Source: a virus
Lineage: Duplodnaviria; Heunggongvirae; Uroviricota; Caudoviricetes
Length of the DNA: 9,491 bases
Virus record (IMG/VR): IMGVR_UViG_2547132272_000017
Coordinates: 1-9,491 of that record
Direction: 5' to 3' (one strand)
The notes beneath the pieces were generated by a model. It searched no databases. It was not told the DNA's origin and saw nothing but the letters and a program-made list of their open reading frames with translations. The position numbers and the translations under genes were made by a program. Each line of letters opens with the position of its first letter. The first letter of the stretch is position 1. Shown one piece after another: positions 1 through 9,491 of this stretch.

Positions 1-91
1 ACTCTCCAGGAAACCCGGGGCGGTTCAGTTGTTCCGCCTGTCGCAACATTTCCTGTGCCTGTTTACGTAATTGTTCAGGGGTAAAAGTCAT
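1..91 (-). CDS. Partial ORF (N-terminus only; continues past the left window edge), hypothetical protein
   Basis: ATG at 91..89 on the minus strand, 11 nt after the helicase stop (TGA, 105..103). Reverse complement of 1-91 is open and reads MTFTPEQLRKQAQEMLRQAEQLNRPGFPGE. No clear Shine-Dalgarno; only 30 codons visible. Confidence 0.25.
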   Translation of the reverse strand, partial: MTFTPEQLRKQAQEMLRQAEQLNRPGFPGE

Positions 92-6227: not shown

Positions 6228-6920
6228 ATGACATTTTCAGAACGACTTGATTTAGCTATGCGCAACGCAAAATTTACGCAAGGTAGGCTGGCCAAAGAAG
6301 TGGGTATGGCTCAGTCCAGTGTCAATCAACTACTTAACAAAGCCAACGGTTCCAGAAAAACAGTCGAAATAGCAAAAGTTTTGGGCGTTAACCCGGAATG
6401 GCTCGCATCGGGTGTTGGCCCAATGGAAATCGTGACCTCTGCAGACTCACACCAAATACGTAACATTTCTGAAGATTGGGTTACTGATTCGTATGTCGTG
6501 GATGTTTTAGACATCAGATATAGTTGCGGACCTGGTAGTTATAACTCTGATTTTCCTGACATTGTCAGATCTATAGCGATAGAACCAGGATACGCATCAA
6601 GAGTTTTTGGCGGCAGGCCAGCATCAGCAATCAAAGCAATAAACGCCCACGGCGACAGTATGAAAGGCACAATAGACCCTGAAGACTTGGTATTTGTAGA
6701 TGTATCAGTTCGCACATTTAATGGTGATGGTATATACGCCTTTACATACTCTGGAACATCGCACATCAAAAGACTTCAAAAAATCAAAGATACTCTAACG
6801 GTGATATCTGACAACCCAGCTTACAAGGATTGGGCTATCGAACCGGAAGACTTCGAACAACTTCACATTGACGGAAAAGTAATTGTCAGTTGGCCCATGA
6901 CACTACACCGTTTTGCATAA
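6228..6920 (+). CDS. cI: CI-like prophage repressor: N-terminal HTH plus C-terminal LexA/S24-type autopeptidase
   Basis: HTH (FTQGRLAKEVGMAQSSVNQLL); S24 motifs GDSM with a Lys about 38 residues downstream (HIKRL); possible Ala-Gly-type cleavage region (LASGVG). SD GGAGG 10 nt upstream of the ATG. Confidence 0.9.
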   Translation: MTFSERLDLAMRNAKFTQGRLAKEVGMAQSSVNQLLNKANGSRKTVEIAKVLGVNPEWLASGVGPMEIVTSADSHQIRNISEDWVTDSYVVDVLDIRYSCGPGSYNSDFPDIVRSIAIEPGYASRVFGGRPASAIKAINAHGDSMKGTIDPEDLVFVDVSVRTFNGDGIYAFTYSGTSHIKRLQKIKDTLTVISDNPAYKDWAIEPEDFEQLHIDGKVIVSWPMTLHRFA

Positions 6921-7014: not shown

Positions 7015-7063
7015 CATGGCATAGGTATCGAACTCACCAAAGCAATTATAGAGGATGAGAAAA

Positions 7064-7561
7064 ATGTCATCGTATATGGGGTTACCAACAAATCAGCACG
7101 ATGCTCTTGAGAATATTCAACTCTTAGTAGGGGCTGGTGCACTACTGTATAGCAGCAATAATCCTGAGTTAATTGAACTTGCCAGCTCCATCCTGGCTGT
7201 AACTCAAAAATACAGCCTCACCGCGTCGCGTTTATGCAAACAAAATTTAGCTATTAATTCCCAGAATCGGATTCGCACCCAACGCGAAGCCTGCGGCTTA
7301 ACAACCGCCGAACTCGCCAGGCTGCTCGATCTCGATGAAGAAATTATCATCCAGTGGGAGAGCGGAGAGTATGAACCAACTATCAGTATGCTTATCCCAC
7401 TGGCAAATATTCTTGGCTGCGATCCGATGTGGCTGTTAACTGGCGAAGTTACTCCTCCGGAGCAACCAAAAAGTGAGGAGCAGCAACACCATGACGCATC
7501 TCAACAAGTTTGCTCCTTATCTCGCGAAGCTCTTCTACGGAAGAACCAATACCAATGGTGA
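7064..7561 (+). CDS. XRE-family HTH protein with an uncharacterised N-terminal region (166 aa); first gene of the leftward operon
   Basis: SD GAGGA 8 nt before the ATG at 7064. HTH_XRE signature in the C-terminal half (IRTQREACGLTTAELARLLDLDEEIIIQWESGEYEPTISMLIPLANILG). No Arg-rich N-type motif. Confidence 0.7.
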   Translation: MSSYMGLPTNQHDALENIQLLVGAGALLYSSNNPELIELASSILAVTQKYSLTASRLCKQNLAINSQNRIRTQREACGLTTAELARLLDLDEEIIIQWESGEYEPTISMLIPLANILGCDPMWLLTGEVTPPEQPKSEEQQHHDASQQVCSLSREALLRKNQYQW

Positions 7562-8055: not shown

Positions 8056-8253
8056 CAACAAATATGCCATGAACGTTTATTACGGTTTTATCGCCGGGGA
8101 TTGTTGCAACCTTTATTCATAGAGGTAACTCAGTTATGACTTTCCTGAAAAATAAGGCATCGTATAAAACTGCCTGCCTCATTGCACAACATGGAGATTC
8201 TTATCTTCATATAGCCAACCTGTATTTGCGCAAAGCATATGGGAGATAAATAA

Positions 8254-8442
8254 ATGAAAGAAAAACAACAGAACATAACACATGAAAAAGTAAGAGTGTT
8301 GTTGACCATTGAAAATGGGAAAGTGATTTACTCAAAACATCTGTCGGATGATGAATTCGTTGGCTGCATGGATACATTTCTGTGGATGGTAAAAAGAGCG
8401 GGTTACACGATTATTCCACCAGCAAAGGAACAAACATTATGA
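8254..8442 (+). CDS. Hypothetical small protein (62 aa), translationally coupled to the downstream gene
   Basis: SD GGGAGA 7 nt before the ATG at 8254. Stop TGA overlaps the next ATG (ATGA at 8439-8442). Confidence 0.55.
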   Translation: MKEKQQNITHEKVRVLLTIENGKVIYSKHLSDDEFVGCMDTFLWMVKRAGYTIIPPAKEQTL

Positions 8443-9020
8443 ATTATTCAGAGTTCCGACCAGAAGTTACGCCACATGGCATAAAAATTGGCAATACAAC
8501 CATTGATTATGTTGAGGCCGTACAGCGACTTAATGATGGTGAATACGATTATCCAAACTCACACGGTTTAAGAATCATGCAATGTATTGCTGAAGCCGAT
8601 GATGCAGGGTTGCTGGGACGATTTTCAGTCGATATGAAAGTTGCTCAATGGCGATGGCTGTATGTGACTACGTTTATAAATGAAGAGAAAGACAAGAACG
8701 GTACCGTTGATATCCCTAACGATAATGGAACTACAGATCGCGCAGTTATTTACAAGGGGAAACATGGTTGCCTGAGTATCTACCCCGGACCACTTCGCAT
8801 TGCCCTGCAAAACCATGTCGAATGGGGATTTATTGAAAAATATGGCGAAGCTGAAGGCATGGGGCGAGTTCTGTTTCTCTATCAAAAAATGCTCATCGCA
8901 GATCCTGATAATGGTTTCATTATCTCTGCTATGGGGCGCGAAGGGCTTGAACTCCTTCTGGATGAAATGATTCACGATCTGAATACTCATGGTATGCCAG
9001 AAGCGCCAGTGACACATTAA
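8439..9020 (+). CDS. Hypothetical protein (193 aa)
   Basis: ATG at 8439 with SD AAGGAA 8 nt upstream and ATGA overlap with the 62-aa gene. The ORF track's longer form starts at a GTG (8382) with no RBS. Soluble-looking, no recognised catalytic motif. Confidence 0.65.
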   Translation: MNYSEFRPEVTPHGIKIGNTTIDYVEAVQRLNDGEYDYPNSHGLRIMQCIAEADDAGLLGRFSVDMKVAQWRWLYVTTFINEEKDKNGTVDIPNDNGTTDRAVIYKGKHGCLSIYPGPLRIALQNHVEWGFIEKYGEAEGMGRVLFLYQKMLIADPDNGFIISAMGREGLELLLDEMIHDLNTHGMPEAPVTH

Positions 9021-9027
9021 ATATTAA

Positions 9028-9052
9028 GAAGAATATAATTCTTCCGTTTTTT
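9028..9052 (+). terminator. Candidate intrinsic terminator (AT-rich 7-bp stem GAAGAAT / ATTCTTC, loop ATA, T6)
   Basis: Read directly, 8 nt after the stop of the 193-aa gene. The stem is weak (two G-C pairs), so efficiency is uncertain. Confidence 0.45.
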
Positions 9053-9065
9053 ACTAACCGTTTAT

Positions 9066-9173
9066 ATGAAAAGCAACCGTGAATTAAGCAGAGTAAAACT
9101 GATTTTAATCCTTGCCACAGTGCTGACACTAACTGAAATCATTATTCTCTTTATTGCGCTGTCAGTCGGTTAA
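9066..9173 (+). CDS. Candidate small hydrophobic peptide (35 aa, single predicted transmembrane helix)
   Basis: ATG at 9066; MKSNRELSRVK followed by a hydrophobic stretch (LILILATVLTLTEIIILFIALSV). No SD; below the ORF-track size cutoff. Confidence 0.25.
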   Translation: MKSNRELSRVKLILILATVLTLTEIIILFIALSVG

Positions 9174-9196
9174 AAATATCGGGATACCACAGACCA

Positions 9197-9385
9197 ATGA
9201 GACTGTATTTCACAATAGTAATTTTACTGGCAATTATCGCATGCATTTACGGATTACTCGTTCCGTTCCTTATATCCATGAAGGATACGATAGCAGTTAT
9301 TTCTGGCTTTGCACTGGCGTTTCTGACCCCGCCCTGCATTTATGCCATTTACAAGGGTCTTTCTTTCACTAAGGATAAAAGATGA
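9197..9385 (+). CDS. Small membrane protein (62 aa, two predicted transmembrane segments, charged C-terminus)
   Basis: Hydrophobic segments FTIVILLAIIACIYGLLVPFLI and IAVISGFALAFLTPPCIYAIY. Weak SD. Stop overlaps the next ATG (ATGA). Confidence 0.5.
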   Translation: MRLYFTIVILLAIIACIYGLLVPFLISMKDTIAVISGFALAFLTPPCIYAIYKGLSFTKDKR

Positions 9386-9477
9386 AAAAAATTATTTTTG
9401 CTTTAGCCATTGTTCTGCCGACTATTGGCCTTGTCGGTTGCGATCGCGTTGAACCAGGTAATGGCTTTGTTGAATAA
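9382..9477 (+). CDS. Tiny putative lipoprotein precursor (31 aa; signal peptide plus lipobox LVGC)
   Basis: SD AAGGA 6 nt before the ATG at 9382. MKKIIFALAIVLPTIGLVG|CDRVEPGNGFVE: n-region, h-region and lipobox Cys at residue 20. ATGA-coupled to the upstream membrane-protein ORF. Confidence 0.4.
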   Translation: MKKIIFALAIVLPTIGLVGCDRVEPGNGFVE

Positions 9478-9491
9478 ATCGAACTTTTGCT

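What the first reader, a model, noticed from the sequence alone, without database searches (positions are those of the whole stretch)
9066..9477. Cluster of three very small membrane-targeted ORFs
Three consecutive tiny ORFs follow the weak terminator: a 35-aa single-helix peptide, a 62-aa two-helix protein with a charged tail, and a 31-aa lipoprotein precursor with a textbook lipobox whose start overlaps the preceding stop (ATGA). Small prophage-encoded membrane peptides are often toxins, holin-like proteins, immunity factors or exclusion determinants, and are frequently missed by gene callers. The mature lipopeptide would be only about 12 residues, which is unusual.
Basis: partly seen in the sequence, partly recalled or inferred. 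Interest (0 to 1): 0.55.

Follow-up and report, generated by a model that had tools for sequence, protein, structure and literature searches.

The report
IS-truncated phage SPFH lipoprotein gene cluster
The "tiny lipoprotein" is only the first 27 codons of an ordinary 275-residue phage membrane-scaffold (SPFH) gene cut off by an insertion sequence; the 62-residue ORF is that gene's conserved small membrane partner, and the 35-residue ORF remains unproven.

Summary
All three ORFs exist at the stated coordinates, with the stated hydrophobic helices, lipobox and ATGA overlap. They are not three equivalent mini-genes.

- **ORF3 (9382-9477) is an artefact.** Homology to intact prophages (E. coli UMNF18 100%, phiP27 97.7%) stops at 9462/9463. 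From 9463 on, the sequence is the terminal inverted repeat of an IS903-group (IS5-family) insertion sequence. That repeat supplies the last four codons (GFVE) and the stop. The intact gene encodes a 275-aa SPFH/Band_7 lipoprotein (phrog_200). The 31-aa product is a singleton in a ~15-billion-protein collection.
- **ORF2 (9197-9385) is real.** It is a 62-aa two-helix protein (phrog_1130). It lies directly upstream of the SPFH gene in 84/84 close loci and 10/10 further enterobacterial places, always overlapping it by 4 nt. It is also next to an SPFH lipoprotein gene in remote relatives.
- **ORF1 (9066-9173) is uncertain.** A hydrophobic ORF this long is improbable by chance, and its frame is kept in Salmonella relatives. 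However, it has no Shine-Dalgarno sequence and no family hit, was never found as a called protein, shows no frame-specific selection signal, and is absent from many phages that carry the module.

Overall this is ordinary biology: an IS knock-out of a catalogued but uncharacterised phage module.

The parts
9028..9052 (+). Weak AT-rich hairpin (GAAGAAU-AUA-AUUCUUC) plus a T-run after the upstream 193-aa gene (8439-9020).
   Evidence: RNA fold gives -4.9 kcal/mol. The terminator scan did not report it. Indels fall in its T-run among close relatives. The hairpin is absent in Salmonella relatives.
9066..9173 (+). ORF1, 35 aa: MKSNRELSRVKLILILATVLTLTEIIILFIALSVG. A possible single-pass membrane micro-protein; its coding status is unproven.
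   Evidence: For: a hydrophobic ORF of this length occurred in 0/5000 shuffles. The same start, stop and 35-codon length, with no indel, are kept in Salmonella relatives although the upstream spacer has indels. Against: no Shine-Dalgarno sequence. No family hits. None of the 4 variants tested is in the 15-billion-protein collection. pN/pS is 0.49, no different from the other frames. One allele has lost the start codon. It is present in only 52 of 85 SPFH loci, always between the 193-aa gene and ORF2.
9197..9385 (+). ORF2, 62 aa: a two-helix inner-membrane protein (phrog_1130) and the conserved, translationally coupled upstream partner of the phage SPFH lipoprotein gene.
   Evidence: phrog_1130, E=2.5e-23. 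Annotated by PGAP as WP_001242070.1. Intact in 84/84 loci. Paired with a Band_7 gene by a 4-nt overlap in 10/10 further places. The turn LISMKDT is invariant and TPPC nearly invariant. AF2 helices 2-26 and 31-61. 89 cluster representatives in the profile search.
9371..9375 (+). Shine-Dalgarno-like AAGGA for the SPFH gene, embedded in the 3' end of ORF2.
   Evidence: The sequence AAGGA[AT]AA[AG]A[AG]ATGA is kept in E. coli, Klebsiella-phage and Fraca homologues.
9382..9462 (+). Retained 5' end (27 codons: signal peptide, lipobox LVGC at 9430-9441, Cys20, then DRVEPGN) of a 275-codon SPFH/Band_7 lipoprotein gene.
   Evidence: Identical to E. coli UMNF18 WP_000720012.1 up to this point. The intact protein matches Pfam Band_7 at 109 bits (cut-off 23.6) and phrog_200 at E=2.7e-114.
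9382..9477 (+). ORF3, the chimeric 31-codon ORF: 27 SPFH codons, then GFVE and TAA read from the IS terminal repeat.
   Evidence: Alignment to the intact gene and to IS ends. The product is a singleton cluster carried only on copies of this 9,714-bp contig (4 contigs with the same neighbouring genes).
9463..9491 (+). Outer end of an IS903-group (IS5-family) insertion sequence. The 18-bp terminal inverted repeat GGCTTTGTTGAATAAATC is at 9463-9480. G9463 could belong to either side of the junction.
   Evidence: The last 40 nt match at least 26,455 places in at least 5,000 plasmids. In L003/L004 the same sequence directly precedes IS5-family / IS903B transposase genes. The parent contig continues for exactly 140 nt, 140/140 identical to the L003 element.

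Best explanation
**What the region is.** It is the distal part of the leftward, repressor-side operon of a phiP27-like lambdoid prophage, interrupted by a mobile element.

**The two-gene module.**
- It consists of a 62-aa two-helix membrane protein (ORF2, phrog_1130) and, overlapping it by ATGA, a 275-aa SPFH/Band_7 lipoprotein (phrog_200).
- In this contig an IS903-group insertion sequence has landed after codon 27 of the SPFH gene.
- The resulting 31-codon 'lipoprotein' ORF is the signal peptide and lipobox plus 7 mature residues, then 4 codons and a stop read from the IS inverted repeat.
- It is an accidental product, not an evolved mini-lipoprotein. The SPFH function is knocked out here.

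**How the intact module probably works (inferred).**
- ORF2 inserts as a helical hairpin. Both termini are cytoplasmic by the positive-inside rule (N-terminal Arg/Lys, Lys-rich tail). The invariant S-M-K-D-T turn faces the periplasm.
- The SPFH protein is exported and lipid-anchored at Cys20. Asp at +2 predicts inner-membrane retention in enterobacteria.
- The SPFH protein oligomerises through its SPFH domain and Ala/Glu-rich C-terminal helix, like HflK/C, giving a periplasm-facing scaffold on the inner membrane with ORF2 as its integral-membrane partner.
- The two proteins are made in coupled amounts.
- The biological role is unknown. The module is probably accessory, because it is absent from many related phages and is dispensable here.

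**ORF1.** It is a lineage-restricted hydrophobic ORF in the spacer upstream of the module. It is not part of the conserved module. I put the chance that it is translated at about 50%.
For: **Shown: the IS truncation**
- All E. coli and phage matches end at window 9463.
- In those records the same ATG opens an 828-nt SPFH gene.
- The 18-bp IR and the following sequence equal the IS903B / IS5-family ends next to transposase genes.
- The parent MEGAHIT k141 contig ends after exactly 140 nt (k-1) of IS, 140/140 identical to L003.
- The 31-aa product is a singleton.

**Shown: the ORF2-SPFH module**
- Band_7 at E=3e-31, phrog_200, and phrog_1130.
- ORF2 is intact in 84/84 loci.
- The ATGA overlap and the SD are kept at 74% nucleotide identity.
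- 10/10 further places show the same pair, between repressor and xis/int.
- Remote ORF2-like genes sit next to SPFH lipoprotein genes in L155 and L157.
- AF2 gives two helices.
- The SPFH protein has weak similarity to HflK/HflC over residues ~105-240.

**ORF1**

**Inferred, not shown**
- Topology, inner-membrane retention, oligomerisation, a physical ORF2-SPFH interaction, and the timing of expression.
Against: - The other IS end and the 3' part of the SPFH gene are not on the contig. A simple insertion (9-bp target duplication) cannot be told apart from an IS-mediated deletion.
- The junction comes from a metagenome short-read assembly.
- No direct evidence exists for an ORF2-SPFH interaction.
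- The residue at +2 after the lipobox Cys is Asp only in the enterobacterial versions. It is Tyr in L155 and Gly in L157, so inner-membrane localisation is not a family-wide feature.
- ORF2's pN/pS against a Salmonella homologue is only 0.52.
- In L155 a 57-aa gene separates the two genes.
Confidence: 0.9

Rival explanations
1. One reading: three bona fide, independently evolved mini-genes, including a genuine 31-aa lipoprotein precursor that yields a ~12-residue lipopeptide acting as toxin, holin-like, immunity or exclusion factor.
For: The ORFs, the hydrophobic helices, the lipobox LVGC and the ATGA overlap are all real. If ORF2 is translated, the truncated ORF could still be translated and lipidated.
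Against: - 27 of the 31 codons are the 5' end of a 275-codon gene found in at least 132 E. coli genomes and in phages.
- The remaining codons and the stop come from an IS inverted repeat.
- The product is a singleton among ~15 billion proteins.
- There are no defence, toxin or holin family hits.
Confidence: 0.03
2. The IS junction is an assembly chimera. In the real genome the SPFH gene is intact, and the contig merely ran into an unrelated IS copy in the de Bruijn graph.
For: The source is a metagenome MEGAHIT contig. Both of its ends stop about k-1 nt into repeated IS sequence (139 and 140 nt). Only one base (G9463) is shared at the junction.
Against: - Homology breaks exactly at the first base of the IS terminal inverted repeat, as expected for true transposition and not for a random misjoin.
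- A k=141 contig needs reads that span the junction.
- A contig ending k-1 nt into a repeat is the normal signature of a real repeat boundary.
- Four contig records carry the same product, though they may be copies of one assembly.
Confidence: 0.05
3. ORF1 is a genuine translated single-pass membrane micro-protein of this prophage lineage, for example a small modulator or toxin-like peptide, or a leader ORF that delivers ribosomes to the poorly SD-equipped ORF2 start 23 nt downstream.
For: - A hydrophobic ORF of at least 35 codons arose in 0/5000 shuffles of the spacer.
- Start, stop and length are conserved without indels in Salmonella relatives, although the adjacent upstream spacer has indels.
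- All indels among close relatives fall outside it.
- ORF2 has a strong SD or overlaps an upstream gene wherever ORF1 is absent, but has only a distant GGGA here.
Against: - No SD.
- No family hit.
- None of the four variants tested is in the 15-billion-protein collection.
- pN/pS of 0.49 is not distinguishable from the five other frames.
- The intact-frame permutation test gives p=0.06-0.15, and one allele has an ATA start.
- The mid-helix residue switches Glu to Lys in Salmonella.
- Absent from 33 of 85 module-bearing loci and from 185,579 species-representative genomes.
- No RNA structure links it to the ORF2 start.
Confidence: 0.5

Closest known systems
Phage phiP27 gene L05 'lipoprotein' and its upstream small ORF, equivalent to PHROG families phrog_200 and phrog_1130. 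RefSeq equivalents are WP_000720012.1 (SPFH domain-containing protein) and WP_001242070.1 (hypothetical protein).
   Same: The sequence is 97.7-100% identical over 8900-9463. The gene order, the ATGA overlap and the position between repressor and xis/int are the same.
   Different: Here the SPFH gene is cut after codon 27 by an IS903-group element. phiP27's own annotation omits the 62-aa gene.
IS903 / IS903B (IS5 family, IS903 group) insertional gene disruption
   Same: The 18-bp terminal inverted repeat GGCTTTGTTGAATAAATC is identical. 140 nt of the element's end match 140/140 (L003) and 132/140 (IS903B in L004), next to IS5-family transposase genes. It is a very abundant multi-copy element in enterobacterial plasmids.
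   Different: Only one end is visible. The 9-bp target duplication typical of IS903-flanked transposons (PMC9282650) cannot be checked. The element is closer to the Klebsiella michiganensis plasmid copy than to the E. coli IS903B copy.
Prokaryotic SPFH-NfeD operons (for example Pyrococcus stomatin PH1511 with PH1510, or E. coli QmcA-YbbJ; PMC2636767, PMC4208085)
   Same: An SPFH-domain protein is encoded in a tight operon with a small membrane protein partner.
   Different: ORF2 has no NfeD/OB-fold domain and no Pfam NfeD hit. Family members are only 55-90 aa. The SPFH protein is anchored by a lipobox rather than by a transmembrane or hairpin segment.
E. coli HflK/HflC, the periplasm-facing SPFH cage around FtsH (PDB 7VHP/7VHQ)
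   Same: There is weak sequence similarity over the SPFH and coiled-coil region, residues ~105-240. The SPFH domain is predicted to be periplasmic in both. Both have a lambdoid-phage connection, since HflKC modulates cII turnover (established knowledge).
   Different: Scores are far below the HflK/HflC model cut-offs (23-26 bits against 134-159). The protein is lipid-anchored and apparently homo-oligomeric rather than a TM-anchored heterodimer. No link to FtsH was tested.
SPFH/Band 7 lipoproteins annotated in Vi01-like phages (PMC3220722, PMC10892097), and the prophage-encoded HflK/C-like lipoprotein PM0222 of Pasteurella multocida (PMC9872710)
   Same: These are phage- or prophage-encoded SPFH proteins annotated as lipoproteins. 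The ~148-kb phage contigs L155/L156 carry an SPFH lipoprotein plus an ORF2-like gene.
   Different: Homology to those specific proteins was not tested here. PM0222's reported role (TLR1/2 activation, virulence) has no demonstrated relevance to this module.

Membership tests
Bacterial lipoprotein precursor (Lgt/LspA substrate) | A positively charged N-region, a hydrophobic core and a lipobox [LVI][ASTVI][GAS]C | tested here: met
   MKK-IIFALAIVLPTIG-LVGC; the regular expression matches residues 17-20. The feature belongs to the 275-aa parent gene.
Bacterial lipoprotein precursor (Lgt/LspA substrate) | A self-contained gene whose mature part is conserved | tested here: not met
   The mature part here is 7 native residues plus GFVE from the IS repeat. 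The product is a singleton, and all homologues are 275 aa or longer.
SPFH / Band_7 (PF01145) | An SPFH domain above the Pfam gathering score | tested here: met
   Intact homologue (L001 3483-4307): 109.2 bits against a cut-off of 23.6, residues 22-208. The window's ORF3 keeps only residues 22-27 of the domain, so the window copy itself lacks it.
IS903 group, IS5 family insertion sequence | The terminal inverted repeat GGCTTTGTTGAATAAATC, with element sequence adjacent to an IS5-family (DDE) transposase gene | tested here: met
   IR at 9463-9480. 140/140 identity to L003, where an IS5-family transposase CDS starts 32 nt inside. 132/140 to the annotated IS903B in L004.
IS903 group, IS5 family insertion sequence | A 9-bp target-site duplication flanking the element | not testable with these tools
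   The contig ends 140 nt into the IS, so the other junction is not available.
PHROG phrog_1130 (phage 'membrane protein', moron category) | A full-length profile match | tested here: met
   ORF2 residues 1-61 match profile positions 2-62 of 66, E=2.5e-23.
NfeD (SPFH operon partner) | An NfeD C-terminal OB-fold domain or an NfeD Pfam match | tested here: not met
   No NfeD hit for ORF2 at E<=1. Family members are 55-90 aa with no extra domain.
HflK / HflC (FtsH modulators) | A score above the NCBIfam equivalog cut-offs | tested here: not met
   25.9 bits against 134.4 (HflC) and 23.1 against 159.4 (HflK). PDB HflK match E=4e-4.
Known small membrane toxins, holins or anti-phage defence proteins | A match to any Pfam, PHROG, NCBIfam or PADLOC model of such a family, or an Rfam antisense RNA | tested here: not met
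   ORF1 has 0 hits in all four libraries. ORF2 has only phrog_1130. PADLOC gives 0 for all proteins. Rfam gives 0 for 8300-9491.

The most novel reading that the evidence does not exclude
The ORF2 family is made of two-helix proteins of about 55-90 aa. They share the motif YG[FL]xxPxL[IV]Sx[KR]D[TS]xxVxxG and a Lys-rich tail, and the profile search found 89 cluster representatives. This family could be a dedicated, previously undescribed, NfeD-independent membrane partner of lipid-anchored phage SPFH proteins. Together the two proteins would form a periplasm-facing scaffold that temperate and large lytic phages use to remodel or protect the host inner membrane. Possible uses are controlling FtsH-type proteolysis in the lysis-lysogeny decision, or blocking superinfection. 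In the phiP27 lineage, ORF1 would be an extra, unannotated micro-protein.
Probability: 0.3. Interest if true: 0.5.

Novelty: already known. Interest (0 to 1): 0.2.

Why it matters
- **Cautionary case.** A 'textbook' mini-lipoprotein read from raw sequence can be the stump of a normal gene whose stop codon is donated by an insertion-sequence end at a contig boundary. Windows that end inside repeats should be checked for this.
- **What remains biologically.** Lambdoid prophages of E. coli, Salmonella, Klebsiella and Enterobacter, and some large phages, carry a tightly coupled pair: a 62-aa membrane protein and an SPFH lipoprotein. I found no experimental characterisation of it in the searchable literature.
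- **Why that could be worth testing.** Host SPFH proteins (HflK/C) influence lambda lysogeny, so a phage-encoded SPFH scaffold is a reasonable but untested candidate for envelope or lysogeny modulation.
- **In this window.** The module is inactivated, which suggests it is dispensable for maintaining the prophage.

Tried and rejected
- **tblastn of ORF1 against phages.** 'No match', even though phiP27 carries ORF1. The low-complexity filter masks the peptide, so the null is uninformative.
- **The search for related loci with an ORF1 alignment on species genomes.** 78 pattern matches, none confirmed by tblastn.
- **Degenerate-codon DNA pattern for ORF1.** 0 hits in 185,579 species genomes. 56 hits in viral contigs, all in the same context.
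- **pN/pS and codon-position counts for ORF1.** No discrimination. Even the conserved ORF2 gives 0.52.
- **Intact-frame permutation for ORF1.** p=0.06-0.15, not significant.
- **Rfam on 8300-9491.** Nothing.
- **RNA fold of 9130-9230.** z=-0.40, so there is no structured element linking ORF1 and ORF2.
- **Promoter and terminator scan.** At chance level.
- **PADLOC defence models.** No hit. A defence-system reading is unsupported.
- **NfeD membership for ORF2 and HflK/C membership for the SPFH protein.** Both rejected.
- **Loci for remote ORF2 relatives.** The A3 alignment was too diverse. P0064 and P0056 found nothing. Only P0059 gave loci.
- **Literature searches.** Only annotations of phage SPFH proteins were found, plus one Pasteurella virulence study. 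There were no functional studies of this module.
Full report
**1. Observation**

- ORF1: 9066-9173, 35 aa.
- ORF2: 9197-9385, 62 aa.
- ORF3: 9382-9477, 31 aa.

Their described features also hold.
- ORF1 has a charged N-terminus and one hydrophobic stretch.
- ORF2 has two hydrophobic segments and the tail KGLSFTKDKR.
- ORF3 has MKK, a hydrophobic core and the lipobox LVGC.
- The ORF3 ATG overlaps the ORF2 TGA (ATGA).
- AlphaFold2 on a 27-sequence alignment gives ORF2 two helices, 2-26 and 31-61, at a moderate mean pLDDT of 68.

The 'weak terminator' is a 7-bp AT-rich hairpin of -4.9 kcal/mol. The terminator scan does not report it. It is not conserved in Salmonella relatives.

**2. Context**

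The window is the immunity and replication region of a phiP27-like lambdoid prophage.
- On the - strand lie DnaB-like, DnaC/IstB-like and replication genes.
- On the + strand lie an S24 LexA/cI-type repressor (6228-6920) and a chain of small genes.
- In intact relatives that chain continues to xis and int.
- The gene immediately upstream of ORF1 is annotated as 193 aa (8439-9020, phrog_1515). It overlaps a 62-aa gene (8254-8442, phrog_340) by ATGA.

**3. ORF3 is the stump of an SPFH lipoprotein gene cut by an insertion sequence**

- *Where homology ends.* Every match of 8900-9491 in 265 E. coli genomes and 31 phage records stops at query position 564, which is window 9463. The same is true for the whole window.
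- *What the intact gene is.*
  - In E. coli UMNF18 (100% identical) and phiP27 (97.7%), the same ATG opens an 828-nt gene. It is annotated 'SPFH domain-containing protein' or 'lipoprotein'.
  - The intact 275-aa protein matches Pfam Band_7 at 109 bits (cut-off 23.6) and phrog_200 at E=2.7e-114.
- *What follows the break.*
  - The last 40 nt of the window match at least 26,455 places in at least 5,000 plasmids, with up to 25 places per record.
  - At two of those places the sequence directly precedes an 'IS5 family transposase' and an 'IS5-like element IS903B family transposase' gene.
- *The exact junction.* The window is identical to the intact gene up to ...CCAGGTAAT(G). It then switches to the 18-bp terminal inverted repeat GGCTTTGTTGAATAAATC at 9463.
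- *Reading of the ORF.* Codons 1-27 are native. Codons 28-31 (GGC TTT GTT GAA) and the TAA stop are IS sequence.
- *How common the product is.*
  - The 31-aa product is a singleton cluster in a ~15-billion-protein collection.
  - It is carried only on records of one 9,714-bp MEGAHIT k141 metagenome contig (ENA ERZ27241745 k141_5596, locus L088). Four contigs with the same neighbouring genes were read.
- *How the contig ends.*
  - It continues for exactly 140 nt (k-1) into the IS. That stretch is 140/140 identical to the element on Klebsiella michiganensis pKOCBH-A and 132/140 identical to IS903B.
  - Its other end is 139 nt of an IS3-family element, present in 4,091 of 5,426 E. coli genomes.

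The 'unusually short mature lipopeptide' is therefore a by-product of transposition. The homology break falls on the first base of the inverted repeat, which argues for real transposition and against a random assembly misjoin. Read mapping would settle this.

**4. ORF2 is a real, conserved partner of the SPFH gene**

- *Family and annotation.* ORF2 matches phrog_1130 ('membrane protein') at E=2.5e-23. PGAP annotates it as WP_001242070.1.
- *Close relatives.*
  - Its exact sequence occurs on 998 contigs.
  - In 84 of 84 SPFH-bearing loci with upstream sequence, it is intact and directly upstream.
- *More divergent relatives.*
  - In Klebsiella phage ST512-KPC3phi13.5 and Escherichia phage Fraca (about 74% nucleotide identity), the protein, the ATGA overlap and the AAGGA Shine-Dalgarno sequence are all kept.
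  - Ten of ten further places (Enterobacter, Klebsiella, Salmonella and metagenomes) show a 62-64-aa gene overlapping a 275-aa Band_7 gene by 4 nt. The pair always lies between a cI-like repressor and xis/int on the same strand.
- *Conserved residues.* The inter-helix turn L-I-S-M-K-D-T is invariant and T-P-P-C is nearly invariant.
- *Wider family.* A profile search of 1.84 billion representatives finds 89 clusters at E<=1e-3. Nearly all are 55-90 aa. They share YG[FL]xxPxL[IV]Sx[KR]D[TS]xxVxxG, a basic N-terminus and a Lys-rich tail. None has an added domain.
- *Remote relatives.* Two kinds of remote relative that could be placed on DNA also sit beside SPFH lipoprotein genes.
  - In L157 there is again an ATGA overlap with a 278-aa gene.
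  - In L155/L156 (~148-kb phage contigs) a 57-aa gene lies between the ORF2-like gene and a 296-aa SPFH lipoprotein gene.
- *Selection signal.* ORF2's pN/pS against a Salmonella homologue is 0.52, compared with 0.05 for SPFH. Outside the conserved core, constraint is loose.

**5. ORF1 is not part of the module, and its coding status is open**

*Evidence for:*
- A hydrophobic ATG ORF of at least 35 codons never arose in 5000 dinucleotide shuffles of the 176-nt spacer. Any ORF of at least 35 codons arose in 4.4% of them.
- In Salmonella relatives, at about 84% identity over ORF1 (17 of 105 positions differ), the start, stop and 35-codon length are kept with no indel. The spacer just upstream has indels and loses the hairpin.
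- All indels among 41 distinct close relatives fall outside ORF1.

*Evidence against:*
- There is no Shine-Dalgarno sequence.
- There is no hit in Pfam, PHROGs, PADLOC or NCBIfam.
- Four common variants are absent from the 15-billion-protein collection, so none was found as a called protein.
- Polymorphisms by codon position are 10/4/10.
- pN/pS is 0.49, within the 0.36-1.11 range of the other five frames.
- The intact-frame permutation test gives p=0.06-0.15, and one natural allele has ATA instead of ATG.
- A mid-helix Glu becomes Lys in Salmonella.

*Distribution:*
- ORF1 is present in only 52 of 85 SPFH loci.
- Where it is absent, ORF2 has a strong SD (CAGGAGGA) or overlaps a different upstream gene.
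- A degenerate-codon pattern for its invariant core finds 0 hits in 185,579 species genomes. It finds 56 hits in viral contigs, all in the fixed order 193-aa gene, ORF1, ORF2, SPFH.

I put the probability that ORF1 is translated at about 0.5. One untested idea is that it acts as a leader ORF for ORF2, which lacks a good SD in this lineage. No RNA structure supports this.

**6. Mechanism**

*Shown:*
- The two-gene architecture and its translational-coupling signals.
- The SPFH domain, the lipobox and the two helices of ORF2.
- The IS disruption.

*Inferred from established rules:*
- By the positive-inside rule, both ORF2 termini are cytoplasmic and the invariant SMKDT turn is periplasmic.
- The SPFH protein is lipid-anchored at Cys20. 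Asp at +2 (the Lol-avoidance signal; my own knowledge) predicts inner-membrane retention. This holds only for the enterobacterial versions, because L155 has Tyr and L157 has Gly at +2.
- The SPFH domain and the Ala/Glu-rich C-terminal helix, which resemble HflK/HflC weakly, would oligomerise into a ring or cage on the periplasmic face, with ORF2 as its integral-membrane partner.

The biological role is unknown. No defence-system model matches. The literature I could search contains only annotations of phage SPFH lipoproteins (PMC3220722, PMC10892097) and one study of a Pasteurella prophage HflK/C-like lipoprotein as a virulence factor (PMC9872710). I did not test whether that protein is homologous to this one.

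The module is absent from many related phages and is knocked out here, so it is probably accessory.

**7. Comparison and novelty**

- The components are catalogued: phrog_200, phrog_1130, RefSeq proteins and the IS903 group.
- The module works like an SPFH-partner operon (SPFH-NfeD; PMC2636767, PMC4208085). ORF2 is not an NfeD protein, and the SPFH protein is not an HflK/C equivalog.
- The headline feature, the tiny lipoprotein, is not a real evolved feature.
- What is mildly new is the breadth and tightness of the pairing between the ORF2 family and SPFH lipoproteins. I did not find this described.

**8. Verdict**

This is an ordinary finding that is now explained. Interest is low (0.2). A modest residual question remains about the function of the phage SPFH and small-partner module, and about whether ORF1 is translated.

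Noticed in passing
window 1-27 (L088 1-139): The 5' end of the window is the outer end of an IS3-family element...ACTCTCCAGGAAACCCGGGGCGGTTCA, whose reverse complement starts TGAACCGCCCCGGG. It is present in 4,091 of 5,426 E. coli genomes, at up to 50 copies. The prophage fragment is therefore bounded by IS sequence on both sides. The parent MEGAHIT k141 contig stops 139 and 140 nt into the repeats.
   Followed up: yes
window 8136-8249 (+): A 37-aa ORF (MTFLKNKASYKTACLIAQHGDSYLHIANLYLRKAYGR) has 32-38-aa counterparts ending ...L(Y/F)(L/M)(R/K)KAYG(R/K/V) at the equivalent position in Salmonella, Klebsiella, Fraca and Stx2-phage loci. It is a conserved, non-membrane micro-protein of the leftward operon, with no PHROG or NCBIfam hit.
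   Followed up: partly
window 8254-9020 (+): The upstream genes are translationally chained like ORF2/SPFH. A 62-aa gene (phrog_340) ends at 8442, overlapping by ATGA the start (8439) of the 193-aa phrog_1515 gene. The mechanical ORF list extends the latter to a GTG at 8382 (212 aa).
   Followed up: partly
L155 2857-3747; L157 1040-1876: The residue after the lipobox Cys of phage SPFH lipoproteins varies: Asp in enterobacterial prophages, Tyr in L155 and Gly in L157. Membrane sorting (inner versus outer membrane) may therefore differ between lineages or hosts.
   Followed up: no
cluster of ORF2: P0045, P0046, P0049, P0051: Some database members clustered with ORF2 are 110-217-aa 'SPFH domain-containing protein, partial' entries from E. 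coli and Shigella flexneri. This suggests ORF2-SPFH fusions by frameshift, or partial calls at contig ends. It was not examined.
   Followed up: no
window 7055-7561 (+): A 168-aa HTH protein matching 'CII-like regulator' phrog_4836 (E=3e-51) lies directly downstream of the cI-type repressor on the same strand. That is an unusual place for a cII-like gene compared with lambda.
   Followed up: no
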